Source: an uncultured virus (IMG/VR IMGVR_UViG_3300010158_000055)
Taxonomy: Duplodnaviria; Heunggongvirae; Uroviricota; Caudoviricetes
DNA: 64,000 nucleotides
Strand: one strand, 5' to 3'
Virus record (IMG/VR): IMGVR_UViG_3300010158_000055
The notes below the pieces were generated by a model. The model was not told the origin of the DNA. It worked only from the letters and a program-made list of their open reading frames with translations, and made no database searches. A program made the translations under genes and the position numbers. Shown here piece by piece: positions 45,801 through 61,084 of the stretch. Within the stretch, counting starts at the first letter, position 1. Every line of letters begins with the position of its first letter.

Positions 45801-45829
45801 TTCGGCTCCTAACATTTCACTATACAACT

Positions 45830-45858
45830 ATTATAGCATGACTTGAATTCTGGGTCAA
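45830..45858 (-). promoter_or_regulatory. Sigma70 early promoter
   Basis: TTGACC-17-TATAAT. Confidence 0.8.
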
Positions 45859-46069
45859 CTGTTATTGACCACTGCCTGCACCAGATTTTTAATGCGTAGT
45901 TCACGATACCGGCCAATGCGTTCTTCCAACTCCATGGCATGACCACGATAGTGTGTCACCAGGTCTTCGGCTAAATCGTCCAGCTCTGACTCGGTTAAAT
46001 CGGCTATGGTTTCTGCTAGGCCAATAATTTTTATATCATTGCACATTGTCGTCCTTGCTGTATTTTATG

Positions 46070-46372
46070 TTAATTACCAAGTACTGCCCAGATTGCAGTC
46101 TGCTCTAAGTCTGTTTCAAACTCGGGATATATTCTATCCAATTCTGTTGTGGGTATCTCAGCGTATCCTTTCTTTTGCTTGGCTCTGATCGAATTGTTTA
46201 TTTGATATGCTTCACCACTGAATGGTTTGGTTTGCAATTTCTTACCACGCCTGCCCCAAACAGTCGCATAGTTTCCAGCATCTGCCCCGTGCTTGGGTGT
46301 TCGCAAACAAATAACTGCCCAAATTTTGTCATGGTTATCTTCGCGACACCATCCAATCCATTTGTAATTCAT
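46070..46372 (-). CDS. WGR-like domain protein
   Basis: DKIW, WGRRG, K.KKGY motifs. Confidence 0.65.
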   Translation of the reverse strand: MNYKWIGWCREDNHDKIWAVICLRTPKHGADAGNYATVWGRRGKKLQTKPFSGEAYQINNSIRAKQKKGYAEIPTTELDRIYPEFETDLEQTAIWAVLGN

Positions 46373-46905
46373 TCAGACTCCTGATAAGGTTTGTGTGGTT
46401 CAAGTCCCAATTCCTCAACTCCATCTTTGTACCATACTGTGACATCATCTTCCAATTCGGCAATACCTGCACTGATGCCAAATTCCGTATCTAAATCCAC
46501 AGGAATGGTGTTGGCCACTTCCGCGGCAGTCAAGTCGCCGATGTTGTAGCAGTCGTCTCCGGTTTCATCAAAGATACCACAAAATGCCATGTTGGGTTCG
46601 TAATACCGGGCCGTGACTCGAAAGCCCAGGTCCTGCAATCGTTCGTATGCGGCAATGGGTGGCGACCAGGCTGAATCAAACGCCAAGTCTAACTCAGTGG
46701 GCTTGCAGTTCATAATAAAATTACCGCCACCCACGTCCCATTTGGTTCCCCAATTGTTTACACACCAATCATAATCCCACTCACCGTTGGGTAAAGGGAT
46801 AAATTCTGCCAACAACTCACTGCGAGTGTAGGCCTTCTTTGCACGGTCAATCATGTCAGGATCACTATGTTGTAATTGTAAACTATTTTCACACCAATTT
46901 GGCAT
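46369..46905 (-). CDS. YubB/DUF1281-like ferredoxin-fold protein
   Basis: MPNWC.N, W...NWGTKWD, F.SAWSPP motifs. Confidence 0.75.
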   Translation of the reverse strand: MPNWCENSLQLQHSDPDMIDRAKKAYTRSELLAEFIPLPNGEWDYDWCVNNWGTKWDVGGGNFIMNCKPTELDLAFDSAWSPPIAAYERLQDLGFRVTARYYEPNMAFCGIFDETGDDCYNIGDLTAAEVANTIPVDLDTEFGISAGIAELEDDVTVWYKDGVEELGLEPHKPYQESE

Positions 46906-46906
46906 G

Positions 46907-47191
46907 TTATTCTCCTACTTGTAATTGTTTAATTAATGTATCTTTTTCAATCAATTGAAACTTGAGATCCTGATTCACCTGTGTCAAGACTGAATTTTTC
47001 TCTTGTAACAACTGTAGTTCTTCCTGCAACTCCAGATCCGGTTCAACAAACTGTATGGCCATGTCACAGGCACTGCTGAAACATGTGGGACAAAAACTCA
47101 CTGGCAACATGCCAAAGTGTCCTTGTACTCCACCTTCATCGTCGGAATATTCGGTACTGCATATATTACATATCTGTTCCGGCACTATCAA
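46907..47191 (-). CDS. Small Zn-finger / coiled-coil protein
   Basis: CNIC...CPTC. Confidence 0.55.
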   Translation of the reverse strand: MIVPEQICNICSTEYSDDEGGVQGHFGMLPVSFCPTCFSSACDMAIQFVEPDLELQEELQLLQEKNSVLTQVNQDLKFQLIEKDTLIKQLQVGE

Positions 47192-47534
47192 TCTCCTTTG
47201 TATGACGGCATTGACCTCTAAATGTGTAGCCGGGACATGTACATGCTAACACACCGTCCACACGCTGTACAATATATTGACCGCCATTTGATCCTGCCAC
47301 TGTCCACTGCTGGGTGGATTTGATCTCATTCAAATCAATTTCGCCCAGCTCCGGAACTTCCTCAAATGTACGACCACGACTACTGAATTGGTATGGTTTC
47401 TTTATCACCACTGGCTCACTGGTGCCTGCTGGCAAGTAGCCATACATCTTGTCCCGAGACGTGTTCAACAGGTATATGTGATTGGGCACTGTGTAGTCTG
47501 TGTCCCAGGCAGTGGTTTCTCTATAAAATTTCAC
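47166..47534 (-). CDS. SWIM zinc-finger protein
   Basis: CTCPG...CRH; AAGGA RBS, GTG start. Confidence 0.65.
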   Translation of the reverse strand: MKFYRETTAWDTDYTVPNHIYLLNTSRDKMYGYLPAGTSEPVVIKKPYQFSSRGRTFEEVPELGEIDLNEIKSTQQWTVAGSNGGQYIVQRVDGVLACTCPGYTFRGQCRHTKEIDSAGTDM

Positions 47535-47548
47535 ATCTATCCTTGTTA

Positions 47549-47660
47549 AAAAATAAGTGCTGGTTTTTATTTCAAGTCTAAAACCAGCAAAAGCGACATG
47601 CGGGTTTCTGGAGTATCAAGGCTCTCCAAGGAAGGCATCTCCCCATTACAGCCTGGTTTA
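47549..47660 (-). ncRNA. Unrecognised structured RNA motif, copy A
   Basis: Shares GGGAGATGCCTTCC, AAACYYGCATGTCG and AGACTYGAA with 52688-52806; ends in a hairpin plus U-rich tract. Confidence 0.7.
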
Positions 47661-47975
47661 ATCAGCTCGGGAACAAGCATAAGCACGTAAGCCGGCCTGC
47701 TGTAATACTCGAGCAAATGCATCGGCACCAGCTTCTTTGACGTCCATGCTCTGTCCATGATATGCACCTGCTGTCCACAGGCTTAGACATTTGGGTTTGT
47801 AACTTTTCTTAAAACCCGCGGCAATCAATTCTCGGGCTTGCTTGGAGTTGACTCGATCCACATAAACTTCAACCCAACCAAAACCACAGTATGCAGGCTC
47901 ACCATGTTTAGCAAGAAAATCGTTTTCGGCTTGTACTGCGGCTTGTTGTGCATTTTGAACAATTTCTTTTATCAT
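47658..47975 (-). CDS. Hypothetical protein
   Basis: CGFGWV, QSMD.KE motifs; behind promoter cassette. Confidence 0.7.
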   Translation of the reverse strand: MIKEIVQNAQQAAVQAENDFLAKHGEPAYCGFGWVEVYVDRVNSKQARELIAAGFKKSYKPKCLSLWTAGAYHGQSMDVKEAGADAFARVLQQAGLRAYACSRAD

Positions 47976-47977
47976 TT

Positions 47978-48040
47978 ACAGCTCCTTTTGTTTAACTATA
48001 CTACTATTATACAATATTTGGAATTTTGGGTCAACCAAAA
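47978..48040 (-). promoter_or_regulatory. Early promoter + RBS cassette
   Basis: TTTTGGTTGACC-17-TATAAT...TATAGTTAA...AGGAGCTG. Confidence 0.85.
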
Positions 48041-48313
48041 TTACGCTAGAGTCACTTGTACTTGGAATCCACGCACTGTCATGCCCAGGCCTGTGGGCAC
48101 ATCGGCACCCAAGTGCTGAGCGAAACTGCGTTTGCGAGCCAACTGCTCCATGACATCCCAAACAGCAACTCTGGCATTTGTTGTGGCAAAATCTTCTGCC
48201 ATTTGCCGAACAGTCAAGTAAAACCCAATGTCATATTCACTGCCACCTTGACCAAAAATCACACGGAATCTTTGGCTGTTTTTAAAACCTTCTATGATTG
48301 TTTTTTTACGCAT
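48041..48313 (-). CDS. Hypothetical early protein
   Basis: Between two promoter cassettes. Confidence 0.65.
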   Translation of the reverse strand: MRKKTIIEGFKNSQRFRVIFGQGGSEYDIGFYLTVRQMAEDFATTNARVAVWDVMEQLARKRSFAQHLGADVPTGLGMTVRGFQVQVTLA

Positions 48314-48315
48314 GT

Positions 48316-48378
48316 TCAGCTCCTTAAAATTTAACTATACTAATATTATAACAAATGACCCATTATGGGTCAACCAAA
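48316..48378 (-). promoter_or_regulatory. Early promoter + RBS cassette
   Basis: TTTGGTTGACC-17-TATAAT...TATAGTTAA...AGGAGCTG. Confidence 0.85.
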
Positions 48379-48609
48379 TTAAAAGTGTGGATCCAAGTGG
48401 TTATGCACTCCCGGAATTAAGTAAACATATCTGCAACCAGTTTCAGTGTAGATTGTTCTACCATCGTACGACTGTTTTTTAGTGTACTTTTTACCAGTAT
48501 CAGTGAAAATAAAACGCGGAGTAATACGTGTGATTTTACCATCATAGTATCTATCACCGTTGATACCGTAACTTACATCATCGCCTACATTGTATTTTGC
48601 TTCTACCAT
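48379..48609 (-). CDS. Hypothetical early protein
   Basis: Start MVEAK with AGGAG RBS; promoter TTGCAC-17-TATAAT at 48640-48668. Confidence 0.65.
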   Translation of the reverse strand: MVEAKYNVGDDVSYGINGDRYYDGKITRITPRFIFTDTGKKYTKKQSYDGRTIYTETGCRYVYLIPGVHNHLDPHF

Positions 48610-48679
48610 TTCTAACTCCTTTTTATTAACTATACATATATTATACGGGTTTTGGATTTCTGGTGCAACCAAAATGTCC

Positions 48680-48707
48680 AAAAAAAAGCCCCTTGTAAAC
48701 AGGGGCT
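48680..48707 (-). terminator. Intrinsic terminator
   Basis: agcccct...aggggct followed by a T run on the minus strand, after the Bug gene. Confidence 0.8.
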
Positions 48708-48737
48708 CTCGGCTGTTGTTTTTCTGCAACACATGGC

Positions 48738-49703
48738 TTATTCTATGTTTTTGCTCACGTTTTTAAGCAATTTTAAGGTCTGGGATTGGGTGTTTGCCAA
48801 CTGCTCAAACGTACCGCCCGGGTTTATAATACCAATTGCTTTTAATCTTTCAGCATACACTGGATTTTTAAGTTCTTGATTTATTAAATTGTTGATACGT
48901 GCTCTGGCCGAAAGAGGTGTATCTGCAGGTGCATACACGCCATACCAAATGTTTAAGCCCAGTTCTGGATGTAAATTGGACAACACTGGTACAGTTACGG
49001 CAGGATTCAATTCATGCACCAGTCTAGAACCTTCAGGTGTCAGCGCCGCAATGATTTTAATTTTACCCGACATCCAAGCCGGACGCATGGTGCTCAACAC
49101 ATCAAAGGCAAAGTCTACATTGCCGCCTATTAGGTCTGTCAGTTGTGGTGCACCACCTTTGTAATTGATAATCTGTGGCATAGGTAATTTTTCCAACTTG
49201 GCCCACAGTGTAAAGAGATTTGCAGTGTTTTTATTCCAGTAGGCCACATTGAACCGTTGAGGATTTTTACGCACATAATCTTTTAGTTCTGCATAGGTGT
49301 TGACAGCACTGTTGGCTGGAACAGCCAACACCATGGTACTGATGCCCAAGGGTACTACAGGATCAAAACTAGATTCTGTATATTCAATGCCGTCTGATCG
49401 AGTCTTGAATGCTATGTTGCTGTCCAAGAATCCAGTGCCGCCCATGAACAAGGTATGTCCATCAGGCTTGGCCCGTGCCACAAAGTTTGCGGCTATGACA
49501 GTGTCTGCCCCGGGTCGATTTACAACCACAGCTCGCCATCCGTTGTTGGCAAACATTTCCTCGACGATACGAGCAACACGATCACTGTTACCACCCGGCG
49601 GGTATGCCACCACAATCTCAATGGGTCGCTTGGTTGGGTCAAACTCAGCCACAGCTGACAGTGATGTCAATAATGCTATGGCGATGATAATTCTTTTAAA
49701 CAT
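48738..49703 (-). CDS. Second Bug/TctC substrate-binding protein
   Basis: Signal peptide; YPPGG..D, NRPGA, PDGHTL, YKGGAP...DL.GG motifs. Confidence 0.88.
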   Translation of the reverse strand: MFKRIIIAIALLTSLSAVAEFDPTKRPIEIVVAYPPGGNSDRVARIVEEMFANNGWRAVVVNRPGADTVIAANFVARAKPDGHTLFMGGTGFLDSNIAFKTRSDGIEYTESSFDPVVPLGISTMVLAVPANSAVNTYAELKDYVRKNPQRFNVAYWNKNTANLFTLWAKLEKLPMPQIINYKGGAPQLTDLIGGNVDFAFDVLSTMRPAWMSGKIKIIAALTPEGSRLVHELNPAVTVPVLSNLHPELGLNIWYGVYAPADTPLSARARINNLINQELKNPVYAERLKAIGIINPGGTFEQLANTQSQTLKLLKNVSKNIE

Positions 49704-49704
49704 G

Positions 49705-50838
49705 TTAATCTCCTAGGTAGTATTGTTTTGAATAAATTTCTTTTAACTTTAATAAAGTATTTTGTTCTTTGAGTGCGTTGCTATTTAGAAAATTAAAAAA
49801 CTTTTCATCTGCTCGTATATTATACAATCCTTTGACATAGTTTCTGGCAACTGAATTGCCCAATTTAAGTTGTGCAATCAACATGGGTTCTCCGTCGGCA
49901 TCATATTCATTTATATCTGCACCTGGTGTAATTTTAGCGTTCCACATGGGACTCAGTAATCTCTTTTGAACCCAACTGGCACCAAATGTCAATTCAGGAT
50001 GACGCCCCACTGCTCTTGCCCATGCAGTGTATTCTTGTGGACTATCTCTGACTTGAGAATGCGTACCTCTTTCTCTGACATGGTTGCGACTTTGCAATAA
50101 TTTTAGTGCTTGTTTGGCCAAGTGACTTTGTTTCAGATTCACCATGGGATCCAAGTAAAAACATTCAATATTGTTATGTCCCATTGCAGTGCGAATAAAT
50201 TTGTCAACTTGGCTTGCATAGTAGCAACCATTGTTGAATACTACATTTGGTTTTTCTAATCCCACCACCAGTCCCCAGCGATGCCCGCTGTGATTACGCT
50301 CGCAATGCTCTACTGTTAAATCAGAAACACTGGACTGTCCTAAGCGTAACAAGTCGCCTTTGTTTTGAAAAATCCAATCCTCATCTTTAACAACATGACT
50401 ACGCAATTCTAGATCGTATTCGCCCCAGGTTGTAATTTTACTGGTTGGATCCCAGTGATGCTTCATCAACCAATCCACATGACTGTCTGGATAAGGATCG
50501 CCACCAGAAATTTGATTGGTGTGTTTAACAATGAATTCGTCTACATGTATTCTGTTGCGTTTGAATATATTATAAATTGTATGGCTATCCGTGCCACCGG
50601 ACCACATAAATATCAATCGCTCGTACTTGTTTCTTAGGTTGACAGCATGAGCTGACATTATGTCGTCAAATGTCGGTTCAGGCTCTTGAGTCCAATCCAA
50701 GGCATCGTACTCTCGGTCATGACAATACAACTCCACTGTGTTGCCAGACGTCATTGATTCGTACTGTGCAAGATATATGTTATAAAATATTTTATTATTA
50801 CAGATGTAATAAATTTCGGATGGTGTTGATGCGATCAT
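49705..50838 (-). CDS. PP-loop (adenine nucleotide alpha hydrolase-like) protein
   Basis: FMWSGGTDS pyrophosphate-binding loop. Confidence 0.65.
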   Translation of the reverse strand: MIASTPSEIYYICNNKIFYNIYLAQYESMTSGNTVELYCHDREYDALDWTQEPEPTFDDIMSAHAVNLRNKYERLIFMWSGGTDSHTIYNIFKRNRIHVDEFIVKHTNQISGGDPYPDSHVDWLMKHHWDPTSKITTWGEYDLELRSHVVKDEDWIFQNKGDLLRLGQSSVSDLTVEHCERNHSGHRWGLVVGLEKPNVVFNNGCYYASQVDKFIRTAMGHNNIECFYLDPMVNLKQSHLAKQALKLLQSRNHVRERGTHSQVRDSPQEYTAWARAVGRHPELTFGASWVQKRLLSPMWNAKITPGADINEYDADGEPMLIAQLKLGNSVARNYVKGLYNIRADEKFFNFLNSNALKEQNTLLKLKEIYSKQYYLGD

Positions 50839-50845
50839 TGAATAT

Positions 50846-51977
50846 TTAACGATTAAAAAGATTGTAATTACCGGTATCGTATTTTTTATTACATCTGTAA
50901 AAACTAAGCATGTGAGTGGAGTAGGTTATTGCATCTCGAACTCGAAGCCATTGCGGCGTAGTATCGTCTACAAATTGATTCAACCCTATTTCTAAAGTAA
51001 AACGTATTAGATCCAATAGTACTTTTTTACTCAACGCATAACCACTATCTTGTATTTGATACACACTGGTGGTTGGCATGACTGGATTAATATCATTGTG
51101 TTCTTTGACATTGTCGGAGGAAAGTTGATCTAACCCTGATTCCCACATTATTTTTAAGGCAGATATTTCTAATAATATAGACTTTAATTTATACACCAAC
51201 ACAGGATCTTGAACCTCGGGACATTTTGATAATTCGTCATAGAGACCAATGATGACGCCCAAATGCACAGTGACCCAACATTGTCTTACAAAGTTTCCCC
51301 ACGGATATGTGGGATCCGAGCGTGGATTTGTTTTTAATATATAGCAATCATCTGTACCCACTGGCAGTGGTTCATGTAGGGTTAAAATTCCTGGCGCTGC
51401 TCCTTTCATTCCCACAGCAGTTGGACTTTCTGTTCCATCGGTTCTCGAATGTTTGATTTTATTTAAATTTAAATAAACAACATATATTGAAACTTCTGCA
51501 TTGTGTTGACTGTGTTTATGTGCATAACTGACTTGCGGAGCACCTGTTTTTGGTACTTCTATCACACAAATGTCAGCGGATTTTAAATTACTTACCCAAC
51601 ATTTTGTTCCAGGAAGTAACATGTTTGTGTCTGTATCGTAACGTATAGTATCTGCGGCACGACTACTTGAATAGCAACAAATCGTTTCATGATATGCACA
51701 AGATTTCAACAGACGATCGCCGGCTCGGTCGGGTACAAGGCTGACAGCTAATCTGGATTTATGATTGTGTTGAACACAGTGTGCCATGGATAAATCGCGT
51801 TGGGCAACATACATTAAATTGTAGTAGAAAATTTTCTTTTCCGCATTAGTTGCTGTTGCAAAATCAAAATCAAAAAACGGAGCTAAAATCTTAAGATTTT
51901 TTTGAAAGTCGCTGTTGTCTTGTAAAGATTCTATGGGAAGGTTTAATTTTTCTAGAAGTTTGATATTTTTGAGCATG
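50846..51977 (-). CDS. Divergent acyl-CoA dehydrogenase-like protein
   Basis: LSMAHCVQH, GTKCWVSN, GMKG motifs, helical C-terminus ending in RDA. Confidence 0.5.
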
Positions 51978-52024
51978 ACAAGAAAGAGTATGTAAATGTA
52001 TTTAGTTTGCACTGTGAGGGTAAC

Positions 52025-52046
52025 AAAAAACCCGCCGAAGCGGGTT
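52025..52046 (-). terminator. tmRNA intrinsic terminator
   Basis: aacccgc-ttcg-gcgggtt-tttt on minus strand. Confidence 0.9.
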
Positions 52047-52352
52047 CTGCTATTTTTGGTAATAAGGTATAACTACCCCAGAGATCATGCCGCTAGGGCG
52101 TAAACCTCATCATTAGATGCGTTTGCATTTATCGATTTGCTTGATTTACAGTCATCGCCTACTGTGTTGCCGTCTCCATTACCTACCCCTGTCGAAACCA
52201 TGGCTGGCCCATCAGAAGAAAACTCAGATCCTTTCACGGTTGGCTCCATTACTGGTTGGCCGCAGTATGCATCCTGCTGAATTTTCTTTTGGTGGACCAG
52301 GCGGGAGTCGAACCCGCGTCCAGAAGTCCTTCACTTTGAAGGAATTACAACA
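52047..52352 (-). ncRNA. ssrA: Circularly permuted (two-piece) tmRNA
   Basis: Acceptor piece first (GACGCGGG-TTCGACT-CCCGC-CTGGTCC-A-CCA, ends 52290), 79-nt spacer, then coding piece from GGGCCAG at 52210; G3:U70 pair; tag ANASNDEVYALAA* at 52126-52085. Outer ends approximate. Confidence 0.93.
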
Positions 52353-52358
52353 ATTCTT

Positions 52359-52505
52359 TTAATTATAACCACGTATGACATTGTTGTCAATGGGTGGATT
52401 TGATCTTGCCAATTCTCGTTTAACAGCTTCTTGATGTTGCTGTTCTTTTTTCTGCTTGTTCTGTTCAAACTTCTGAAGTATCACAACTTCTTCTTTGTGT
52501 GGCAT
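52359..52505 (-). CDS. Small charged ORF (48 aa, MPHKEEVV...)
   Basis: Hand-translated; CTAAATA upstream; overlaps the tmRNA promoter. Confidence 0.4.
   Translation of the reverse strand: MPHKEEVVILQKFEQNKQKKEQQHQEAVKRELARSNPPIDNNVIRGYN
52362..52390 (-). promoter_or_regulatory. Consensus sigma70 promoter for tmRNA
   Basis: TTGACA-17-TATAAT. Confidence 0.9.
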
Positions 52506-52521
52506 AGTATAACTATTTAGT

Positions 52522-52678
52522 ATAGATAAATGCAGGAGTGTCGTATTTCGGAGTCTTCCGCTAAGAAGTCCTTAACCATTGACACGGTTATGTCAGGACT
52601 GTGTGATGGTCCACTCAGCCCGCCTAGTCAACACGTCTGTCAACGATACCCGTAGTTTCCTCTCCTACACTTACCTAT
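52522..52678 (-). ncRNA. Unrecognised ~155-nt structured RNA
   Basis: 17-bp closing stem whose three non-WC pairs are all G:U on the minus strand; several internal hairpins. Confidence 0.6.
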
Positions 52679-52687
52679 TCTAGATAG

Positions 52688-52806
52688 GATCCCGGGGGGT
52701 TCGAGTCTCACCGGGGTCGACATGCAAGTTTTGTAGACGTTGTTTCAAGCGAGCGAATTTCTTCGCCTCTACCGGAAGGCATCTCCCTTTCGCTGATACC
52801 GGCTTA
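52688..52806 (-). ncRNA. Unrecognised structured RNA motif, copy B
   Basis: Same core boxes as copy A; variable arm expanded with a GCGAA-GAAA-TTCGC tetraloop hairpin. Confidence 0.7.
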
Positions 52807-53139
52807 TTCGCCCATTACTTCCTGTGCAATAGCACGAGCCTTAATGGCTTCTAAACTTGGCTTGGCAATTTTGGTCTTGGTTGACTTGACCACTGCTGAA
52901 CCGTTGTACTTTTCATCAGCGGCATCAATCGCGGCACGATAATCTGCATTGGCATACAACTCAGTACCTTTTAAGAAAGTTACCAACTCGCCTTTGGTCA
53001 TTGCTGAAGGCAAATCCATAAGATTGATATCGCTATCAGTTTTTGCCAAGATTTTAACACGAGTCATGTCATTCGCAAAACGAACTTTGTACTGACCTTG
53101 AGTCTTGCTAACACCACCTACTTTGAACTGTTTGTCCAT
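52804..53139 (-). CDS. Conserved hypothetical protein
   Basis: KVRFAND..RVK.L motif; AGGAG RBS; promoter TTGACC-17-TACAAT at 53199-53227. Confidence 0.7.
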   Translation of the reverse strand: MDKQFKVGGVSKTQGQYKVRFANDMTRVKILAKTDSDINLMDLPSAMTKGELVTFLKGTELYANADYRAAIDAADEKYNGSAVVKSTKTKIAKPSLEAIKARAIAQEVMGE

Positions 53140-53517
53140 TTTTTACTACTCCTATTTAAAAGTTGAAAATACAATACCAACACACTTGGTATATTCTAAT
53201 TGTAGTTGATTTTGAATTATTGGTCAACTCGAATTGGAATTTGGTTTGTCCGAAATTATCTTAACCAAATATACAACGGACGGTCATCTTGTGATTCTAC
53301 TGTAACTATTTCTACTTCTGGTTCCAGTTCCGGCAAATCTTCTTCATCCGCTTCACGCTGGTATTCGGGATCTTCGTAATTGTATGCAAATGTCATTTCG
53401 ATGCCTCCTTGGCCACTGCCTGTACTTTGTTGACACCGTTGTCAAACATTCTAGCAATGCCAGAAAACCCCACTGTGCAGACCACAATGCCCACCACTAC
53501 ACCTAGTATAAATTTAC

Positions 53518-53967
53518 TCACCATGCCTCCTCTGTATGCAACTTCATTAAAAGTTCTTGTTCTATTGCTTCATGTAACGGTGTAAAATCCCCACCTTGAC
53601 TCACATACCAAATACCTGCATCATACAGGTAAAAGTACTCGCAACCGCTGAATTTAGAGATCCAGTCCTGTTCGTTGGGGTGAGTGCAGAATGTGTTTGC
53701 TTCATCACCATCTCTATTATAAAAGGTACACTCAGTACTAAAACCATCACTATCATTACCTGGCTTAAAGGTGAAGTCATGTTGCTCACCTATTGCCACA
53801 CCTAAACTTGAGACATCGCCCATGCTGATCAACTTGTTCACCTTGGGACTGGCTTGGTAGTGACGGTCCAACAGTCGCCCCACATAACCTATGTATCCAT
53901 CCCAATGACAGTACACTGCCTTGATCACTGTGCCATGTCGAATGGCAATCGAACTTCTTGTACTCAT
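53518..53967 (-). CDS. Conserved hypothetical phage protein
   Basis: MSTRS.I...YCHWDGY, EYFYL motifs. Confidence 0.7.
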   Translation of the reverse strand: MSTRSSIAIRHGTVIKAVYCHWDGYIGYVGRLLDRHYQASPKVNKLISMGDVSSLGVAIGEQHDFTFKPGNDSDGFSTECTFYNRDGDEANTFCTHPNEQDWISKFSGCEYFYLYDAGIWYVSQGGDFTPLHEAIEQELLMKLHTEEAW

Positions 53968-54210
53968 TCTTCAATCCTTCCCATGGCCACCACAAGTATC
54001 AGCACCAAGGCCGCTATTACAAATCCAAATCCGTATACTAAAATTTCACTCATTGCACTGACTCCTGTAATATTAATTCAGCAAATCGAATGTCGGCCCA
54101 ATGATTGACTGAACCATGATAAGGTTGGCCAGCTGATTCCAGTTCCTCCAATTTTTCTTGAGCCCAGGCACAGGCCTGAGTCTTGAGATCCCATATTCTT
54201 TGATCAAACA

Positions 54211-54950
54211 TTATGCACACTCCTGGTCTATGTCGTGTTGCACTATTGACATTGCAATGTTTAACTCCCCAGATGCTTTGCCGAGAGTATGCCTCAACGC
54301 TGTGTTATAGTGCTGGGGATACTGTCTGGCCAGTTCCAACCGAAGTGTGTGGAGTTGCTCCTTGACAGCCTCTATCTTGTTGTACATTTCAATCATACTG
54401 CCTCCAACATGTTGCCAGGTACACGGTACACGCCCATTGGTGTGCGAACGTTGATGTATTTCACTGCAACTTTTTCCACAGTGCCTTGATAAGTTCTGCC
54501 GTCTCGGTTGCTGGTAAATTTTACCAAGTCGCCCCTCATGAATGCACGAACATTTCTACGAGTGAGTTGAGTCCGTGCATATTTCAGTGCTTCAACTATC
54601 ACATCCAGGTCAGCGTTTTCAAATTGTCCGCTGAGTAATGCCGATCTAATGTCTGATACTGTTGTCATATCTGCTCCTTAAGAATAAAAAGATTCATTAA
54701 AATTTAATGCTGAATAAACTGCTTCACGTACTGCTGTGTCTGTGGCTTCGTTGGCTGTTTTAGGATGAGCTTGAGCCAAAAGAATTAAATGACGTTGCAC
54801 AGTGTTCCAATCCCAGGCTTGTTTTTCTGCCGCCTGCACCACACCATGTACCAATTGATTGCCACGATGCGAAAACATGGCATAGTCCGGAACAGGGTTG
54901 ACGCCTAGTGGAGTCATGCCCGATAATGCTGATGTTTGTGGTGTTTTCAT
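54211..54950 (-). other. Three small hypothetical early genes (54211-54396, 54393-54668, 54678-54950)
   Basis: Tiled ORFs with GGAG RBS. Confidence 0.6.
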
Positions 54951-55148
54951 ATTATAACTGCTCCTTGATGTTGGAAATCATGGCACGAATACGTTGATAG
55001 TCAGATTCTTCTCTACGTTTGCTGACCAATGCTTGGTTGGCTAAATCTTCACGCAAGGCCTCTAAAACCAATTCCGCTTGACGCGGGGTTAAATCTAATA
55101 CAACTCTTTTTGCTATCATTTCAATTCCTTTTTATTAACAATACAACT

Positions 55149-55183
55149 AGTATAAACTATAGTGAATTCTGGGTCAACCAAAA
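55149..55183 (-). promoter_or_regulatory. Early promoter cassette
   Basis: TTTTGGTTGACC-17-TATACT. Confidence 0.8.
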
Positions 55184-55195
55184 ATTGTTGCGTAT

Positions 55196-55423
55196 TTACA
55201 ACAGTTTTATCAGTAATCCCACGGTGTAAATCATCAATAATCCAGCATTTACTGTGATCATTGCTCTATCACGTATTAAAATGCTCCAGATCAAGAATAA
55301 AAAACTGCCCAAATTCAGCACAAGGGCCGAGGCAGGATAAATGTTTAGACTGGCCAACACAGCACCTGTTAAGGTAACTGCTGTGGCAGTCCATTTGATA
55401 GTTGTTGCAATGTTTGATTTCAT
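55196..55423 (-). CDS. Small three-TM membrane protein
   Basis: Hydrophobic; ATG 6 nt after the -10 box. Confidence 0.65.
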   Translation of the reverse strand: MKSNIATTIKWTATAVTLTGAVLASLNIYPASALVLNLGSFLFLIWSILIRDRAMITVNAGLLMIYTVGLLIKLL

Positions 55424-55429
55424 ACTGCT

Positions 55430-55464
55430 ATTATAGCAGTTGGGGAATTATGGGTCAACCAAAA
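55430..55464 (-). promoter_or_regulatory. Early promoter cassette
   Basis: TTTTGGTTGACC-17-TATAAT; 35/37 identical to the copy at 63449-63485. Confidence 0.85.
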
Positions 55465-55465
55465 T

Positions 55466-57604
55466 TTACATTGTAAACAAGGGTCCGGACAGCACACGGG
55501 CACTGTCTTCCACACGTAAGTGACGGTTCAAGTTTTCAATGAACTTGTCTGTCATGTCTCGATTTCTATAGTATCTTGGGAATATGTGTACTTCAACAGC
55601 ATCATCGCCTTCCAACTGCAACACCGCTGTCATTCTATTTCTTCCTTCATGCTGACTCACCTGTGCAGGTTCTGAGAAATCGCCCTGACTCCATGCATCG
55701 GGAATGTCCACTGTTAAAAATGGCGAAGCAATGGCTCCACCGTCGGCAATGTATCGCATGATGGTGGATCGATGGAAATCATTCAAGGGAGCTGCTAACT
55801 TCAAGAACACACTGGGTCGCATTTTGACACGCAGGCCAAAATAGTCCACCTCCATGTTGTGTGGTACAACACCGGCGCCACTGTTGTTGTCAATAACAAC
55901 TTCGTTGACTGTATTGCTTTGTGATATACGAAATATCGAATACAATATGGGATAGTCATCACTGCCTGTTATGCCTTGTTTGATAGGCTGACCACCGTTT
56001 TCTCTAGCAACAAAATCGGCAAACACCTGTTGGAAAACTTTTTCTGGATCTTCTTGGTAATCACTGCTGGTTTGACAGTCATCTGTAAATCCTTCAAAAT
56101 GCACACGATATTCACCAAATTCTTCAACTCCAACGTCATCGGGAGTAAGCTCGCCAATGAACTCTTCAATTTCCTTCCAATCCATGGTGGATTCTGTTAT
56201 TTCCTCATCTCCATCAACATCTTCTCTACCTGTGACATGTATGTCTCTAGCATGGAATGGAATCCAATCTCCCAGTCTGGGATCATGGATGCTGTCGTAG
56301 CCTTGTTCGATCAGACTTGCATATTTTTGCAACATATCGTTTGGCTCATCTTTGCCCTTGACAATCACATAGGGATTTTTACATGTCAATGTGGCACTGT
56401 ATACATAACCATCAGCACCACCTTGTGTGGCATAGTACTCAGCAGTGTCTCGATCTTCGGTCCACCACATGGGTGTGATTAATTCTCTATGTATGCCACC
56501 TTGGTTGCCGTGATACACTGTGACCGGGGCAACTGCTTGTTCGTTCAACTGCATCTGTTTGGCCACCGCAGTAGCCCGTTCCACGTCCTGCATGTCAAAG
56601 GGCTTGAGTTCACCACGCCATATCAGTCGTTTGATTTCAGCCCAGTCCATGTCAACAAATTGTGTATCTTCCACACCAACCTCATTGGGGCCCACTAGTT
56701 GTTGTTCTGAATCAAATCTTCCTCGACAATCGTAAGCGGCACCATCGGGAGCCACTGCATACACATGGTCAACTCTATAGTCGTCATCGTCTTCGGCATC
56801 TTCATCCCAACCTATGTGGGCACGTAGTTGCCAGTCTGGGTGTATTCTTTTCAATGCCAGAGCCATCACATGGCAGTGACCCCTCATGTAGTCTTGTTTA
56901 GATTCCTTCAGGCTCAATGCTGAATCCTGTTGATTTAAATAGGCTTGGTTGAGCTGATCTAAATAACCTTGATTGCGTAGTATTTTAAATGCTAGATTCT
57001 CAACACCAAATTCTCCTTCACGGTCCAGGCCCGATCTACGCATGATGCGAAGTCGATCTCTAATACGTTTTAAATCCGCAGGATCATCTGCTGTGGCAAT
57101 GGCCACTGTGATTTGTTTGATGAGATCGGTCACTTTGGCATTCACTGCTGTGTTGTTGATTGTAGGTGGATTGTATTCAGGTTCTTTGATCCAAGCATCG
57201 TTGAGTAAACTGTATACTCCGCCCGACACCGGTGGGGTGGCTGTATCTTCTATGTACAATTCCACTTCATGTCCACGTATGGAGATGTCGTGTTGATTGT
57301 TCCAGATATCTTTTTTGGCACGGTATAATGCTTCTGCAACATCGTCACATTGCAAGTCATTATAGTTGGTGACCACATGCAGGTCAAAGTCCGAATATTG
57401 TGTATAGTTGTAGTTGGCCATACTGCCGGTCAACACTATGTCCTGCACTTCAAAGTTGGGTATTTCTAAATAATGTTCAAATATTTCTGCAATCTTCAAC
57501 AGGTGTTCACGCACTTCGGGTCTTAGATCATTGCCACGCCAGGCCACTGGGTTCAACTGTTGATGATAGGCTATGTTGCGTTTGACGAAATCTCGAGCTC
57601 GCAT
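55466..57604 (-). CDS. Multi-domain protein: pol-beta-type nucleotidyltransferase plus about four further modules
   Basis: LTGS...SDFDLH; VYHG...WWT..A..YA (ART-like); HEGRNR (ParB-like). Confidence 0.75.
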   Translation of the reverse strand: MRARDFVKRNIAYHQQLNPVAWRGNDLRPEVREHLLKIAEIFEHYLEIPNFEVQDIVLTGSMANYNYTQYSDFDLHVVTNYNDLQCDDVAEALYRAKKDIWNNQHDISIRGHEVELYIEDTATPPVSGGVYSLLNDAWIKEPEYNPPTINNTAVNAKVTDLIKQITVAIATADDPADLKRIRDRLRIMRRSGLDREGEFGVENLAFKILRNQGYLDQLNQAYLNQQDSALSLKESKQDYMRGHCHVMALALKRIHPDWQLRAHIGWDEDAEDDDDYRVDHVYAVAPDGAAYDCRGRFDSEQQLVGPNEVGVEDTQFVDMDWAEIKRLIWRGELKPFDMQDVERATAVAKQMQLNEQAVAPVTVYHGNQGGIHRELITPMWWTEDRDTAEYYATQGGADGYVYSATLTCKNPYVIVKGKDEPNDMLQKYASLIEQGYDSIHDPRLGDWIPFHARDIHVTGREDVDGDEEITESTMDWKEIEEFIGELTPDDVGVEEFGEYRVHFEGFTDDCQTSSDYQEDPEKVFQQVFADFVARENGGQPIKQGITGSDDYPILYSIFRISQSNTVNEVVIDNNSGAGVVPHNMEVDYFGLRVKMRPSVFLKLAAPLNDFHRSTIMRYIADGGAIASPFLTVDIPDAWSQGDFSEPAQVSQHEGRNRMTAVLQLEGDDAVEVHIFPRYYRNRDMTDKFIENLNRHLRVEDSARVLSGPLFTM

Positions 57605-58323
57605 TATTGACCTAAATTAAATCGCATGCCAGTGGCTTGTTCCACTGCAGACACAGGTACTTGATAATTGGGCCAACTGGTTGCTGGAACAATCGGTGCA
57701 TTTGGCATCAGGTATGCTTGTACCTGGCCGCTGTTCTTTTCAATGATGATCTTATACAAACGTGTGGGAATTCCTAAGCCATTGCCCACCGTAGGATGAT
57801 CTTGATCAAATACACCACCGGAGATGATGTAGAAATCTGTGCCCGGAGTCATGGCCCATTGGCGTTCAGCTGTTTCCAGCAAGCGCCATCCACCTCTGTT
57901 GTTGTTTGCATTTTGAGCCACCATGTTTGATAAGTTAAAACTCTCTGACATGATGGCATCGTTTTGTGTGTTGTTACCAGCCGGCGCCATGTGTCCTCTA
58001 TCATGTGTCTTGCCAACCACAGCATAGTCGGCCAGGCTGGCACTGCATTCCGGAGTCACTGCGGCATCGGGGTGGAAGTTATCTCGACGTTTTGCTGGAC
58101 CGGTCATTGCGGCTATGGTTAAATGCTCAAACACTGCTATGGGGGCCTTGACACTACAACGATGGATCACAGCATAGTTCATGTGGCAAATTTCTTGATC
58201 TCCGGGCTGTGCTCGATATTGCGGAGTTCCGTTCACAGTGAACTGCGGGCATTGGGCATTGATCTGTGCTTGCGCCAGTCCTGTTGCAACTAGTAAAACA
58301 AGTGCTAATAAAAACTTTTTCAT
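57604..58323 (-). CDS. DNA/RNA non-specific endonuclease (NucA-like)
   Basis: Signal peptide, DRGHMAP, SNMVAQ...NRGGW..LE. Confidence 0.9.
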   Translation of the reverse strand: MKKFLLALVLLVATGLAQAQINAQCPQFTVNGTPQYRAQPGDQEICHMNYAVIHRCSVKAPIAVFEHLTIAAMTGPAKRRDNFHPDAAVTPECSASLADYAVVGKTHDRGHMAPAGNNTQNDAIMSESFNLSNMVAQNANNNRGGWRLLETAERQWAMTPGTDFYIISGGVFDQDHPTVGNGLGIPTRLYKIIIEKNSGQVQAYLMPNAPIVPATSWPNYQVPVSAVEQATGMRFNLGQ

Positions 58324-58332
58324 TGACGGTCC

Positions 58333-59478
58333 TTAGTGAAACATTAAAAAACTATTGACGACATCTCGGCGATTTGCAGCTCTGTCACCGTGGCCTGACG
58401 GATATATCACCACGTTCCACCGAGGTGTATCTCCGGGCGGGATCTGTAGCATTTGATCGTAACTGATAATGGTGTCAGCATCAACATGATAGGTGGTGGC
58501 CAAGCGTTGTTTTAATGTCGCCCAACCACCGGGTTTAAACTGTGTACGACCTTCAGCATCTTTAATAGCCTTGCCCTTGGGGTCAACAACAATTAAATCT
58601 CTAAACAAGTCTCTACTAATTGTAGGTGCGTTCTTTACTGTATTGCCGGCGGCCTTGTGAAACTCCACACGTTTTTCTTCACCGCGTTTGGCTCCGCCTG
58701 AGAAGTTGATGATGAAATTGTTGGGTTTATCTCCAGTGGCCACCGAAGCAATTTTAGTATAGGCATAGAACTTGACTTCAGGATTGCTTCGTGCTACACC
58801 GTAGGCCAATTCCAAATATTTTTTACTGAAGAAGTCGCCGGCATCATGCCAACGTATTACTAGTTGTATGCCAAGCCGGTCAGTTTTGGCTTTGATTGTT
58901 TTGATTTCACCGTTGAGCATGTCAGTATAGCCCTTGGCGTCGTTCACTAGGAAGTTCAAGGCCTGTGCTGCACTCATGCTGGAAGCTGGGAACATGGTGT
59001 ACCCGCCCTTGCGAGCATAGCAGAACAGCTGACAAGCACCGGCTCCGGGACAGGTGTTGATTTCTACAAAGTCTCCAGTCTCCTCGTTCACTACAATACC
59101 GCTTAGTGCCGGTAGTGTGAGATCATAAACAATCTCGCCTTCGGTGGCGGATTTTTTCATTTTGTAATTGGTGCCCAGGATGGCTTTGGGCCTACGTGTG
59201 ATCTGTTGTGCTAGATCATCCAAGTCCCATTCAGTACCAGCTTCGTCTTTGGTAATAGCCTTGATGTTGCTGGCATGAATAGTGGGTTTGAATTTGTCTT
59301 GTTTGGTTTTAGTACCTGTTTTAATTCTGTCAGCGTAGCCTTGTAGCTCACTGCGTGGTATCACCTTGTGTGGAGCATCAAGCCCTATGGCTTCATCAAC
59401 TTCGTTGTCAACATGCACTACCCGAACTGGAAATCCACCCAGTGTGGTGGATTCAGTAACAAATTCATATAATCTCAT
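58333..59478 (-). CDS. GP88-like protein
   Basis: CPGAGAC..CYA.KG, RWHDAGDF, FYAYTK motifs. Confidence 0.7.
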   Translation of the reverse strand: MRLYEFVTESTTLGGFPVRVVHVDNEVDEAIGLDAPHKVIPRSELQGYADRIKTGTKTKQDKFKPTIHASNIKAITKDEAGTEWDLDDLAQQITRRPKAILGTNYKMKKSATEGEIVYDLTLPALSGIVVNEETGDFVEINTCPGAGACQLFCYARKGGYTMFPASSMSAAQALNFLVNDAKGYTDMLNGEIKTIKAKTDRLGIQLVIRWHDAGDFFSKKYLELAYGVARSNPEVKFYAYTKIASVATGDKPNNFIINFSGGAKRGEEKRVEFHKAAGNTVKNAPTISRDLFRDLIVVDPKGKAIKDAEGRTQFKPGGWATLKQRLATTYHVDADTIISYDQMLQIPPGDTPRWNVVIYPSGHGDRAANRRDVVNSFLMFH

Positions 59479-59689
59479 TGCAATCGTTCCTAAATATATT
59501 AGTATTTAGTTGATTGCACACAACTGAGGATTGATATTACCGTCGGAATTGGCCCGGATAGTTTAGACGTTGCCACTCTTCATCAGTGACAGGCCACCAG
59601 TTATTTGACACGATATTTTTTTGTAAGTTCATAGTCGACTCTTGCACGGCGAGCTTCTCTAATAGCAGAGAATAAAATAGTTAAAAATT

Positions 59690-59848
59690 TCATAATTTTA
59701 ATCCTCCTGAACGATTTTCGTATTCACGTGTCCAACGTTCAATGTCGGCGGTTGAGTTGGGGTTTTTGCTGATTATAAATGTTTCTAATGCTGATTTAGA
59801 TTGGCCCGTGCTTAACAAGCGATCTAACCATTTCAATAATTGTGTCAT
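59690..59848 (-). CDS. Small hypothetical protein
   Basis: AAGGA RBS before MTQLL; ATAAATA upstream. Confidence 0.55.
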   Translation of the reverse strand: MTQLLKWLDRLLSTGQSKSALETFIISKNPNSTADIERWTREYENRSGGLKL

Positions 59849-59909
59849 TGCTTTTCCTTTGTTGGTAGTTGTATTTATCTCAGTAGAAACCATGAGATAT
59901 ATTACACGT

Positions 59910-60404
59910 TTAACATTTGGAAAAGTCTTGATGTCGAAACCAACGTTTTTGTCCAAAGCTGGTTTTCAGAGTGAGACCGTAGTGTGCAAACTGCTCACGC
60001 CAGGCAAAAAAGCTGGGTCCATGTCCGCCTGACAGTTGATACATCTCTCTACCATGCGAGTCTAAATGTTCCCATCGATATACGTCCCACTGATATTGGT
60101 GCACCATTTCGTGTGCCAGAGTATTCATGAACCACTGCTGGCAAAACCATTTGTCACTGATTTCTATCTTGCAATAACTACCCGACGGCTGTTGGTCCAG
60201 CCACTCGCAACAGCCCCAGATTTTTTTAACTCTGTGTTGTATTATCTCGGGTCTAGTCAATTGATTGTCAAAGCAGTATCTGTTGAGTATTCTATAGGCA
60301 TACAACACGTCTTCATCTGTGGGACGAAAACTTTTACGCCGTTGGTAGGTGATACCAGGAAGTGGTTGTTCCATTATACGTCGTATGGGATTGGGTCTTG
60401 CCAT
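59910..60404 (-). CDS. SprT-like zinc metalloprotease
   Basis: LAHEMVH (HExxH) and HGPSF. Confidence 0.8.
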   Translation of the reverse strand: MARPNPIRRIMEQPLPGITYQRRKSFRPTDEDVLYAYRILNRYCFDNQLTRPEIIQHRVKKIWGCCEWLDQQPSGSYCKIEISDKWFCQQWFMNTLAHEMVHQYQWDVYRWEHLDSHGREMYQLSGGHGPSFFAWREQFAHYGLTLKTSFGQKRWFRHQDFSKC

Positions 60405-60472
60405 AGAAATGCCCCTAACAAAGTATTTATTCTACACTTTATTAAAGGCAAATTACAGCACAAGCGGCACAA

Positions 60473-61039: not shown

Positions 61040-61084
61040 ACTATACCTTTCGGTTTGGTTAAAGTTAAAAACAGTGTAACACAA

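What the first reader, a model, noticed from the sequence alone, without database searches (positions are those of the whole stretch)
52688..52806. Copy B of the motif heads an ncRNA cluster
Seen: again starts right after a TAA stop, of a gene unrelated to copy A's neighbour. Core boxes at 52774-52787, 52718-52731 and 52700-52708. The variable arm holds a GAAA-tetraloop hairpin. No U-tract follows; next come the ~155-nt element and then tmRNA. Inference: identical cores in unrelated contexts imply selection on the RNA, possibly as a processing or regulatory element.
Basis: partly seen in the sequence, partly recalled or inferred. Interest (0 to 1): 0.8.

Follow-up and report, generated by a model that had tools for sequence, protein, structure and literature searches.

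The report
Double-pseudoknot RNA of freshwater jumbo phages
The flagged stretch is a real folded RNA of about 104 bases with two interlocked knots, one member of an uncatalogued family that large lake phages carry next to their tRNA, tmRNA and other small-RNA genes; what it does is still unknown.

Summary
In detail: copy B (52794-52691, minus strand) starts 9 nt after a TAA, carries the three boxes at the stated places and a GAAA hairpin, and has no U-tract. It is more than a two-copy repeat. I found 11 further distinct relatives in uncultured phage contigs. A covariance model built without copies A or B scores copy B at 62 bits (E 4e-14). The family fold has two successive H-type pseudoknots plus an invariant 5-bp hairpin with a G.U pair. 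On 12 sequences, 89.6% of pair cells are standard pairs, against 39-49% when partners are slid, and 12 of 28 pairs change on both sides. G.U pairs fix the RNA on the gene-sense strand. Rfam 15 has no match. Relatives do not always follow stop codons (5 of 12). Two sit directly behind tRNAs, one of them inside an 18-tRNA array, and others lie among other unknown folded RNAs. Copy A is a trimmed variant fused to a terminator hairpin. It is near-identical in three other contigs and absent from the same junction in a close relative. Most likely this is a discrete small RNA cut out of polycistronic transcripts. Its function is inferred, not shown.

The parts
52804..52806 (-). TAA stop of the upstream 111-aa ORF (52804-53139), 9 nt before the first pseudoknot strand
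52790..52794 (-). PK1 5' strand AGCGA
   Evidence: Pairs with 52752-52748. The same pairing is kept with other letters in relatives.
52774..52787 (-). Box 1 hairpin: GGGAG / loop AUGC / CUUCC, with G.U as third pair
   Evidence: Helix 2: 100% of cells paired, G.U in 12 of 12, 2 pairs with changes on both sides.
52768..52772 (-). ARM helix 5' strand GUAGA (pairs with 52737-52733); crosses PK1
   Evidence: Helix 3: 95.8% paired. In copy A all 5 pairs differ and still pair, in the same register.
52753..52766 (-).
   Evidence: GNRA-capped hairpins with other stems in types C, D, D', F; absent in copy A.
52748..52752 (-). PK1 3' strand UCGCU
52738..52747 (-). A-rich linker UGAAACAACG between PK1 3' strand and ARM 3' strand
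   Evidence: A-rich in all 12 aligned sequences.
52733..52737 (-). ARM helix 3' strand UCUAC
52717..52732 (-). Box 2: AAAAC-UU-GC-AU-GUC-GA; GUC (52721-52719) is the PK2 5' strand
   Evidence: AAAC and GC are invariant. PK2 covaries GUC/GAC with GUG/CAC, 5 against 7 sequences.
52691..52715 (-). Hairpin 3: CCCGG (52715-52711) / CCGGG (52695-52691); the loop holds box 3, and GAC (52707-52705) is the PK2 3' strand
   Evidence: Helix 5: 3 pairs with changes on both sides. No U-tract follows.
52523..52677 (-). Neighbouring ~155-nt folded RNA element (separate module)
   Evidence: Fold z -3.8. 3 homologs; 15 of 41 predicted pairs kept through changes on both sides.
52359..52505 (-). Small conserved ORF (48 aa); its 3' end holds the promoter TTGACA-17-TATAAT (52390-52362) for the tmRNA
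   Evidence: Homologous ORF with the same C-terminus in L046.
52025..52404 (-). Permuted (two-piece) beta-type tmRNA
   Evidence: Rfam RF01850 157.8 bits and RF04321 138.5 bits; ARAGORN.
47548..47654 (-). Copy A: trimmed variant (no inner hairpin); hairpin 3 is 9 bp and followed by UUAUUUUUU
   Evidence: Near-identical in L001, L002, L004.

Best explanation
Copy B is a gene-sense RNA of about 104 nt. It belongs to a previously uncatalogued family of double-pseudoknot RNAs in large uncultured freshwater phages.

The fold, 5' to 3', is:
- PK1 5' strand
- an invariant 5-bp hairpin with a G.U third pair
- ARM helix 5' strand
- an optional, often GNRA-capped hairpin
- PK1 3' strand
- an A-rich linker
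- ARM 3' strand
- a single-stranded RAAAC-N-GC segment
- a second pseudoknot, in which box 2 pairs with the 5' part of the loop of hairpin 3

Shown: the family exists, the fold is under selection, the strand is the gene-sense one, there is one copy per phage record, and the element is co-oriented with whatever lies upstream (mRNA, tRNA or another folded RNA).

Inferred: it has no promoter of its own. It is transcribed as the tail of the upstream unit and released as a discrete, compact, stable small RNA by the host nucleases that mature the neighbouring tRNAs and tmRNA. It then acts in trans, most likely through sequence-specific recognition of its invariant hairpin and single strands by a protein.

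I put the reality of the structured RNA at about 0.9 and the excised trans-acting small RNA reading at about 0.45.
For: Membership:
- Model R3 was built from 9 relatives, without copies A or B. It hits copy B at 62 bits, E 4e-14, in 167 kb.

Structure, on 12 distinct sequences:
- 89.6% of 335 pair cells are standard pairs, against 38.8-49.3% with partners slid by 1-3 columns.
- 12 of 28 pairs change on both sides (1 of 500 shuffles reach this).
- 40 cells change on both sides (0 of 500 shuffles).
- PK1 appears in 7 letter versions, 5-9 bp long. The E-type rows flip every pair.
- PK2 switches GUC/GAC to GUG/CAC in 7 of 12.

Strand: 24 G.U cells, including one G.U in 12 of 12.

Context:
- Type F fills the 125-nt slot between tRNA-Asp and tRNA-Met in an 18-tRNA array.
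- Type G starts 4 nt after tRNA-Met.
- Copy B lies about 290 nt ahead of the phage tmRNA.
- Types C, D, D' and I lie among other folded RNAs.

Copy number: exactly one match in each of the 14 records with a strong hit, out of 42 records searched.

Transcription: one contig from an RNA library bridges the upstream gene and the first 48 nt of copy B with no differences. This is weak, because DNA carry-over is not excluded.
Against: - No RNA ends, abundance or partner are known.
- The RNA-library contigs are low depth and do not cover the whole motif.
- In 6 of 12 relatives the motif is the last thing before a sigma-70-like promoter, and in 5 of 12 it starts 7-13 nt after a stop codon. That placement fits a cis-acting 3'-end element equally well.
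- Copy A is fused to a terminator-like hairpin.
- The structure was derived by me from these same sequences. Ten of the 11 relatives were collected, or re-found, with patterns that fix box 1 or the ARM/box 2 cores, so conservation of those parts is partly by construction. Covariation in PK1 and hairpin 3 is not affected by this.
- Four E-type rows are one column out of register for PK1 in the alignment and count as unpaired there.
Confidence: 0.5

Rival explanations
1. Cis-acting 3'-end module. The compact double knot marks and protects the 3' end of the upstream RNA, either as a block to 3'-to-5' exonucleases or as a recognition site for an endonuclease. It stands in for, or adds to, an ordinary terminator hairpin.
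For: - The motif always lies directly behind a gene, a tRNA or another RNA, in the same orientation.
- 5 of 12 relatives start 7-13 nt after a stop codon.
- 6 of 12 are followed within 120 nt by a TTGAC-17-TATAAT-type promoter.
- At the slot of copy A, other relatives carry plain terminators (L010, L012-L014) or nothing (L009).
- Copy A has a 9-bp hairpin plus a U-run.
- RNA-library contigs cover the upstream genes and stop inside the motifs (weak).
Against: - A mere exonuclease block would not need 41 invariant columns, an invariant G.U and conserved single strands.
- Type F sits in the middle of a tRNA array, 8 nt before the next tRNA, where no 3' end of a unit is expected.
- Canonical members have no U-tract.
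Confidence: 0.25
2. New class of small self-cleaving ribozyme. It would free the upstream tRNA or mRNA from the downstream transcript, working like the HDV-like theta ribozymes that sit behind phage tRNAs.
For: - The RNA is compact, has two pseudoknots and has invariant unpaired nucleotides.
- It starts 4-5 nt behind the CCA of tRNAs in types F and G.
- Copy A occurs in tandem in L001.
- Theta ribozymes next to phage tRNAs are in print (PMC10879173; abstract seen in the listing).
Against: - No ribozyme family of Rfam matches at E <= 10 or E <= 1.
- The two pseudoknots are successive, not nested.
- No C is invariant in the linker that would correspond to J4/2.
- There are no cleavage data, and the prior for a new class is low.
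Confidence: 0.07
3. RNA element that acts on the transcribing RNA polymerase (processive antitermination in the manner of HK022 put or EAR RNA; both recalled, not tested). It would let early transcripts run on into downstream genes or RNAs.
For: - It lies one gene downstream of early promoters: 53227-53199 for B and 48034-48006 for A.
- Copy A is followed by four genes without a promoter of their own.
Against: - In 6 of 12 relatives a new promoter follows at once.
- Nothing matches Rfam families.
- There is no known pseudoknot-type precedent in phages that I could cite.
Confidence: 0.08
4. Selfish or recombination-spread intergenic cassette. This concerns copy A rather than B. The near-identity reflects recent spread, not function.
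For: - Copy A is 98-100% identical over about 100-109 nt in L001, L002 and L004, while the flanking genes are about 78-80% identical or unrelated.
- It is tandem in L001.
- It is absent from the same gene junction in L009, whose flanks are 79% and 70.5% identical.
Against: - No terminal inverted repeats or target duplications are seen.
- Copy A keeps PK1, box 1, ARM and PK2 of the family.
- Canonical type I occupies the same slot behind the same gene in L109, so the slot is ancestral.
- This reading does not explain copy B or the covariation.
Confidence: 0.05
5. DNA-level site or plus-strand tRNA-like minihelix (for example an attP-type tRNA 3' fragment).
For: The plus strand of hairpin 3 in copy B resembles an acceptor plus T-arm minihelix: mascRNA model 22.4 bits, E 0.037.
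Against: - The score is below the gathering score of 42.5.
- The T-loop-like letters are not kept in types C-J.
- The 24 G.U cells would be A.C mismatches on the plus strand.
- No integrase is nearby.
Confidence: 0.03

Closest known systems
Phage T4 rnaC and rnaD (species 1 and 2 stable RNAs of the tRNA region)
   Same: Small folded RNAs of 119-139 nt, of unknown function. They are co-oriented with the phage's tRNA genes and packed among them (annotation).
   Different: Not homologous: the best R3 match in the 5-kb T4 tRNA region is 5.4 bits, E 1.2, and does not lie on rnaC or rnaD. The T4 RNAs end in tRNA-like 3' parts (sequence). The present family has two pseudoknots and no such end.
HDV-like theta ribozymes behind phage tRNAs (PMC10879173; abstract only, seen)
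   Same: A compact pseudoknotted RNA placed directly downstream of phage tRNA genes.
   Different: Here the pseudoknots are successive, not nested. There is no invariant C in the corresponding linker. The hairpin that would be P3/L3 is variable and is missing in copy A. No Rfam HDV model matches. No cleavage is shown.
Classical H-type pseudoknots with A-rich third loop (pseudoknot strings of tmRNA, small pseudoknot riboswitches; recalled)
   Same: Each half has two crossing helices with an A-rich strand that can run along a groove.
   Different: No Rfam riboswitch or tmRNA model covers the motif. It is not placed upstream of a constant gene class, and in type F no ORF follows it.
GOLLD / ROOL large ornate RNAs (PMC12286853; abstract only, seen)
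   Same: Phage-borne non-coding RNAs of unknown function. The tRNA-gene association of these RNAs is recalled, not read.
   Different: The present motif is only about 104-125 nt long (size of GOLLD/ROOL recalled as far larger). No Rfam match to either family.
Intrinsic (Rho-independent) terminator
   Same: In copy A, hairpin 3 is 9 bp and followed by a U-run.
   Different: Copy B and all 11 canonical relatives lack a U-tract. The hairpin loop is 12-19 nt and takes part in a pseudoknot.

Membership tests
The double-pseudoknot phage RNA family defined here (model R3) | Significant score to a covariance model built without the candidate | tested here: met
   Copy B: 62 bits, E 4e-14. Copy A: only 2.5 bits.
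The double-pseudoknot phage RNA family defined here (model R3) | PK1, box 1 hairpin with G.U third pair, ARM helix, RAAAC-N-GC strand, PK2 and hairpin 3, all in this order | tested here: met
   All are present in copy B. Copy A has all but the inner hairpin.
Any Rfam 15 family | Match at the gathering score, or at least E <= 1 | tested here: not met
   Only the tmRNA is found in the window. Nothing lies on the motif at E <= 10 except a minus-sense-incompatible mascRNA hit. Nothing lies on 6 relatives at E <= 1 or on L046 at E <= 5.
Intrinsic terminator | G+C-rich hairpin with a short loop, directly followed by a U-tract | tested here: not met
   No terminator-like site at 52688-52720, and the sequence shows AUCCUAUC after the stem. 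Copy A has a stem plus U-run but a 12-nt loop.
HDV-like / theta ribozymes | Nested double pseudoknot (P1, P1.1, P2, P3, P4) with conserved L3 and a catalytic C in J4/2 | tested here: not met
   The pseudoknots are successive. The columns of the linker have no invariant C, and the P3-equivalent is variable. No Rfam hit.
HDV-like / theta ribozymes | Site-specific self-cleavage | not testable with these tools
   Needs in vitro transcription.
T4 rnaC/rnaD | Sequence and structure homology | tested here: not met
tRNA-like minihelix or attP fragment on the plus strand | Acceptor plus T-arm with a conserved T-loop | tested here: not met
   22.4 bits against gathering 42.5. Not conserved in relatives. 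G.U pairs favour the other strand.
Small protein gene | Boxes conserved in one reading frame | tested here: not met
   The arms differ by 20 nt, so box 1 and box 2 fall in different relative frames in A and B.
Riboswitch | Constant position upstream of a functionally coherent set of genes | tested here: not met
   The downstream neighbours are tRNA, promoters of unrelated genes, or other RNAs.
Mobile miniature element (copy A only) | Terminal inverted repeats and target-site duplication | tested here: not met
   None at the borders in the window, L001, L002 or L004. Presence/absence polymorphism is seen.

The most novel reading that the evidence does not exclude
The motif is a new class of small self-cleaving ribozyme. 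Large phages would place it directly behind tRNAs, mRNAs and other small RNAs to cut polycistronic early transcripts into finished pieces.

A second bold reading concerns the invariant 5-bp hairpin. Its G.U is the third pair counted from the open end. From memory, that is the geometry of the alanine identity element of tRNA-Ala and tmRNA. The RNA could therefore be a decoy for a host factor of the alanine/tmRNA pathway.
Probability: 0.08. Interest if true: 0.9.

Novelty: new variant of a known kind. Interest (0 to 1): 0.6.

Why it matters
Phage tRNA clusters have been known since T4 to hold small stable RNAs whose function is still open. This finding adds a well-defined family to that class. 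The family has a double pseudoknot supported by covariation, is single-copy per phage, and comes from uncultured lake jumbo phages. It sits beside at least two other unknown folded RNAs and a phage tmRNA.

The fold model is precise, with compensatory mutants already suggested by nature. That makes cleavage, probing and pull-down experiments directly designable. Together with similar uncatalogued RNAs noted elsewhere in this scan, it points to an RNA toolkit that large phages bring into the cell.

Tried and rejected
- **Single-sequence folding** did not separate the motif from shuffles: z 0.40 for B and -1.71 for A on the minus strand.
- **MAFFT** could not align A with B. CM-guided alignments were used instead.
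- **Whole-genome searches were not possible.** No genome is held for the window. The 341-kb metagenome record behind L016/L018 is not held, so 277 kb of this phage remain unsearched.
- **Exact-box scans** found only near-copies. There were 2, 3 and 2 viral loci. The metagenome scan gave 10 loci: 2 are the window's own contig, 1 equals L004, and 7 are G+C-rich coding matches without the rest of the motif.
- **An 18-mer from the loop of copy A's hairpin 3** gave 17 loci. Of these, 3 are the known copy-A contigs and 14 are unrelated.
- **Model R2 (A plus B)** missed type D.
- **Bacterial and archaeal genomes.** One pattern gave 0 hits. A looser one gave 11 loci, and none is a full member: 7 R3 matches in 5 of them, the best 18.7 bits over the 5' part only, the others just the 16-nt hairpin.
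- **The weak hit L102** (16.6 bits) lacks box 1 and is left open.
- **Pairing of the box 1 loop with box 2** was dropped. L004 changes the loop without compensation, and the loop does not covary.
- **An anti-Shine-Dalgarno reading of loop 3** was dropped, because the CCUCC letters occur in only 2 of 12.
- **RNA-library contigs.** Beyond the first 28 nt (A) and 48 nt (B), the motifs and the 155-nt element have no listed cover. This proves nothing at depths of 2-5. The differences of a 97%-identical DNA contig over copy B (X4, record 12) were not printed and could not be re-asked.
- **Literature.** Four full-text searches found no description of this RNA. The catalogue of 10,006 viral candidate RNAs (PMC10690425; passages read) may contain it. 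Six of our contig names were not found in the 6 supplementary files that could be searched, and 3 files were not searchable.
- **Earlier notes of this scan** have no sequence look-alike.

Full report
**What is in the window**

The window is part of a large phage. All genes around the finding lie on the minus strand. PHROGs hits include clamp loader, DNA ligase, PhoH, endolysin and virion proteins. Eleven copies of a promoter-plus-ribosome-site cassette are present. The window is 100% and 99.95% identical to two stretches of a 340,958-bp lake metagenome contig.

Reading the minus strand:
- The 111-aa ORF 53139-52804 ends in TAA.
- Nine nt later the motif begins.
- The variable arm holds a GCGAA-GAAA-UUCGC hairpin.
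- No U-run follows.
- Downstream come a 155-nt element that folds far better than shuffles (z -3.8), a small ORF, a perfect sigma-70 promoter and a permuted beta-type tmRNA.

Copy A lies at 47654-47548, behind an unrelated 105-aa ORF. The shared 14-mer is not chance: 2 found against 0.19 expected, and 0 of 100 shuffles reached 2.

**Finding relatives**

Scans with the exact boxes found only near-identical copies of type A. These lie in three viral contigs: L001 with two tandem copies, L002 behind a different small gene, and L004 with one change in the box 1 loop. In the metagenome collection the same scan found only the window's own contig, the contig of L004 and seven chance hits.

The break came from the conserved 111-aa neighbour. 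Among 29 loci encoding its relatives, the A+B model found a diverged copy, type C, in L045/L046. Reading the downstream DNA showed another, type D, in L048. Patterns taken from C and D then gave 15 loci with 9 distinct sequences. A degenerate pattern spanning B to H added two more, types I and J.

A covariance model built from the nine C-H sequences alone (R3) scores copy B at 62 bits, E 4e-14. That search covered 167,276 bases: the window, 17 other loci, and 18 of the 29 neighbour loci (duplicates dropped). The model found the motif in 3 of those 18.

**The fold**

The CM-guided alignment of the 12 distinct sequences shows, from 5' to 3':
- PK1 5' strand
- 2-3 nt
- a 5-bp hairpin, RGGAS / loop / SUUCY
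- 1 nt
- ARM helix 5' strand
- a variable hairpin, GNRA-capped in B, C, D, D' and F
- PK1 3' strand
- an A-rich 8-10-nt linker
- ARM 3' strand
- RAAAC, 1-3 nt, GC
- PK2 5' strand (RGUS)
- hairpin 3, whose loop begins with UGN followed by the PK2 3' strand (SACY)

Counting on this alignment:
- 89.6% of 335 cells are standard pairs, against 38.8-49.3% when the 3' partners are slid by 1-3 columns.
- 12 of 28 pairs show a change on both sides (1 of 500 shuffles reach this).
- 40 cells show such a change (0 of 500).

By helix:
- Box 1 hairpin: 100% paired. Its third pair is G.U in 12 of 12.
- ARM: 95.8%.
- PK2: 88.3%. Its last pair is G-C in 7 and C-G in 5.
- Hairpin 3: 91.5%, with three pairs changing on both sides.
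- PK1: 73.6%. This is low only because the four E-type rows are one column out of register.

A script that looks for the longest complement between the 16-nt 5' flank and the arm interior finds 5-9 bp in all 12. There are seven letter versions, and the E-type version swaps the two strands.

Twenty-four G.U cells would be A.C on the other strand, so the RNA is gene-sense.

Three limits apply:
- I derived the structure from these sequences, which favours it over the slid controls.
- Box 1 and parts of ARM, box 2 and loop 3 were fixed by the search patterns.
- The sample is small.

**Where the family sits**

From:
- Type F fills the gap between tRNA-Asp and tRNA-Met inside an array of 18 tRNA genes. 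It begins 5 nt after the CCA and ends 8 nt before the next tRNA.
- Type G begins 4 nt after a tRNA-Met and is followed by a canonical terminator and a promoter.
- Types E and E' lie about 45 nt behind a tRNA or a tRNA-like 3' end.
- Types B, E'', H, I and J begin 7-13 nt after a stop codon.
- Types C, D and D' lie between other folded elements.
- In L046 the 155-nt element comes before the motif, the reverse of the order in the window.
- A sigma-70-like promoter lies within 120 nt downstream in 6 of 12.

All copies are co-oriented with their neighbours, and none has an obvious promoter directly upstream. In 42 phage records searched whole, 14 have a strong hit and each has exactly one. A fifteenth has a weak 16.6-bit match. 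Two pattern scans of one genome per prokaryote species found no member.

**Copy A**

Copy A keeps most of the fold:
- PK1, as AGGCU/AGCCU
- box 1
- an ARM helix in which all five pairs differ from B yet pair in the same register
- box 2 and the GUC/GAC pairing

It lacks the inner hairpin, and its hairpin 3 is a 9-bp stem with a U-run. R3 does not recognise it (2.5 bits). Its link to the family rests on its similarity to B and on position: canonical type I sits 7 nt behind the stop of the same gene family in L109.

Copy A is 98-100% identical between contigs whose flanking genes are about 78-80% identical or unrelated. It is missing at the same junction in L009. It therefore looks like a trimmed derivative that spreads by recombination and doubles as a terminator.

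**What it is not**

- No Rfam 15 family matches.
- A plus-strand tRNA-like minihelix hit is below threshold and is not conserved.
- It is not a peptide gene, because the frames differ.
- It is not an intrinsic terminator in its canonical form.
- It is not homologous to T4 rnaC/rnaD.
- It cannot be threaded onto the HDV-like fold, because the knots are successive, the linker has no invariant C, and the would-be P3 is variable.

**How it most likely works**

These points are shown:
- The RNA is folded and under selection.
- It is single-copy per phage record.
- It is co-oriented with its neighbours and has no promoter of its own.
- It is embedded where tRNAs, a tmRNA and other small RNAs are made.

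From this I infer that it is transcribed as part of polycistronic early or tRNA transcripts. The host's tRNA-maturing nucleases would then trim it to a compact stable RNA that acts in trans. The 41 invariant columns include a sequence-invariant stem with a G.U pair and conserved single strands. That speaks for specific recognition by a protein or for a catalytic core, rather than for a mere structural block.

I give about 0.45 to the excised trans-acting RNA, 0.25 to a cis-acting 3'-end module, 0.08 to an effect on RNA polymerase and 0.07 to a new self-cleaving ribozyme. The rest goes to selfish spread or DNA-level readings. One RNA-library contig bridges the upstream gene and the first 48 nt of copy B. 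This is compatible with co-transcription but is weak.

**Novelty**

The kind is known: small folded RNAs of unknown function in phage tRNA regions, as in T4. Earlier notes of this scan list other uncatalogued pseudoknotted RNAs in such places. None is a sequence look-alike of this one. This family, with its fold and its distribution, is not in Rfam 15, and I found no description in four literature searches. A 2023 catalogue of viral candidate RNAs could contain it, and its supplements could only be searched in part.

Noticed in passing
window 52523-52677 (-); L046 1874-2028; L044 1876-2030: The ~155-nt element next to copy B is a conserved folded RNA of its own. It has a long closing stem and four hairpins. 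In 3 homologs, 15 of 41 predicted pairs are kept through changes on both sides. No Rfam match. Its order relative to the motif is reversed in L046.
   Followed up: partly
L046 2150-2340; also L048, L088, L109 downstream of the motif: A G+C-rich element of about 200 nt, beginning GGACCCGCC(C/T)GGGTAACGCTGGG, recurs directly or about 100 nt downstream of the motif in four phage lineages. No Rfam match at E <= 5 in L046. Probably a third unknown RNA of this island.
   Followed up: no
window 52359-52505 (-) and 52362-52390 (-): A 48-aa ORF has a C-terminus conserved in L046. Its last codons double as a 12-of-12 sigma-70 promoter (TTGACA-17-TATAAT) for the tmRNA that follows.
   Followed up: partly
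window 52025-52404 (-): The phage carries a permuted (two-piece) beta-proteobacterial-type tmRNA with tag ANASNDEVYALAA. Together with a TctC/Bug-family gene at 48738-49703, this hints at a betaproteobacterial host.
   Followed up: no
L048, L050, L053, L055, L057, just after the stop of the 111-aa gene homolog: A conserved hairpin-within-hairpin element of about 40 nt (GGGGCATCGCCGAGAGGCGTATTAGTCCC and variants) follows the stop codon of the 111-aa gene in several relatives, in the place where the window has copy B.
   Followed up: no
L093 about 1390-1460: An RNA-like stretch is closed by GTCCC...GGGAC and ends in GCCA, about 45 nt upstream of the type E motif. ARAGORN does not call it a tRNA. 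In the sister contig L091 a normal tRNA 3' end holds that place.
   Followed up: no
window 45787-63485, 11 copies (for example 47998-48041, 53191-53234): A repeated early-promoter cassette (TTGACC, 17 nt, TATAAT, then a conserved leader and ribosome site) heads many small genes. DNA contigs of related phages join such cassettes in other orders (joints), which suggests modular shuffling.
   Followed up: no
L118 and L127 (MAG contigs): The 14-nt box 1 core also occurs inside a ~223-nt tandem repeat of a G+C-rich bacterial MAG. The surroundings share nothing else with the family. I judge it a chance match.
   Followed up: partly
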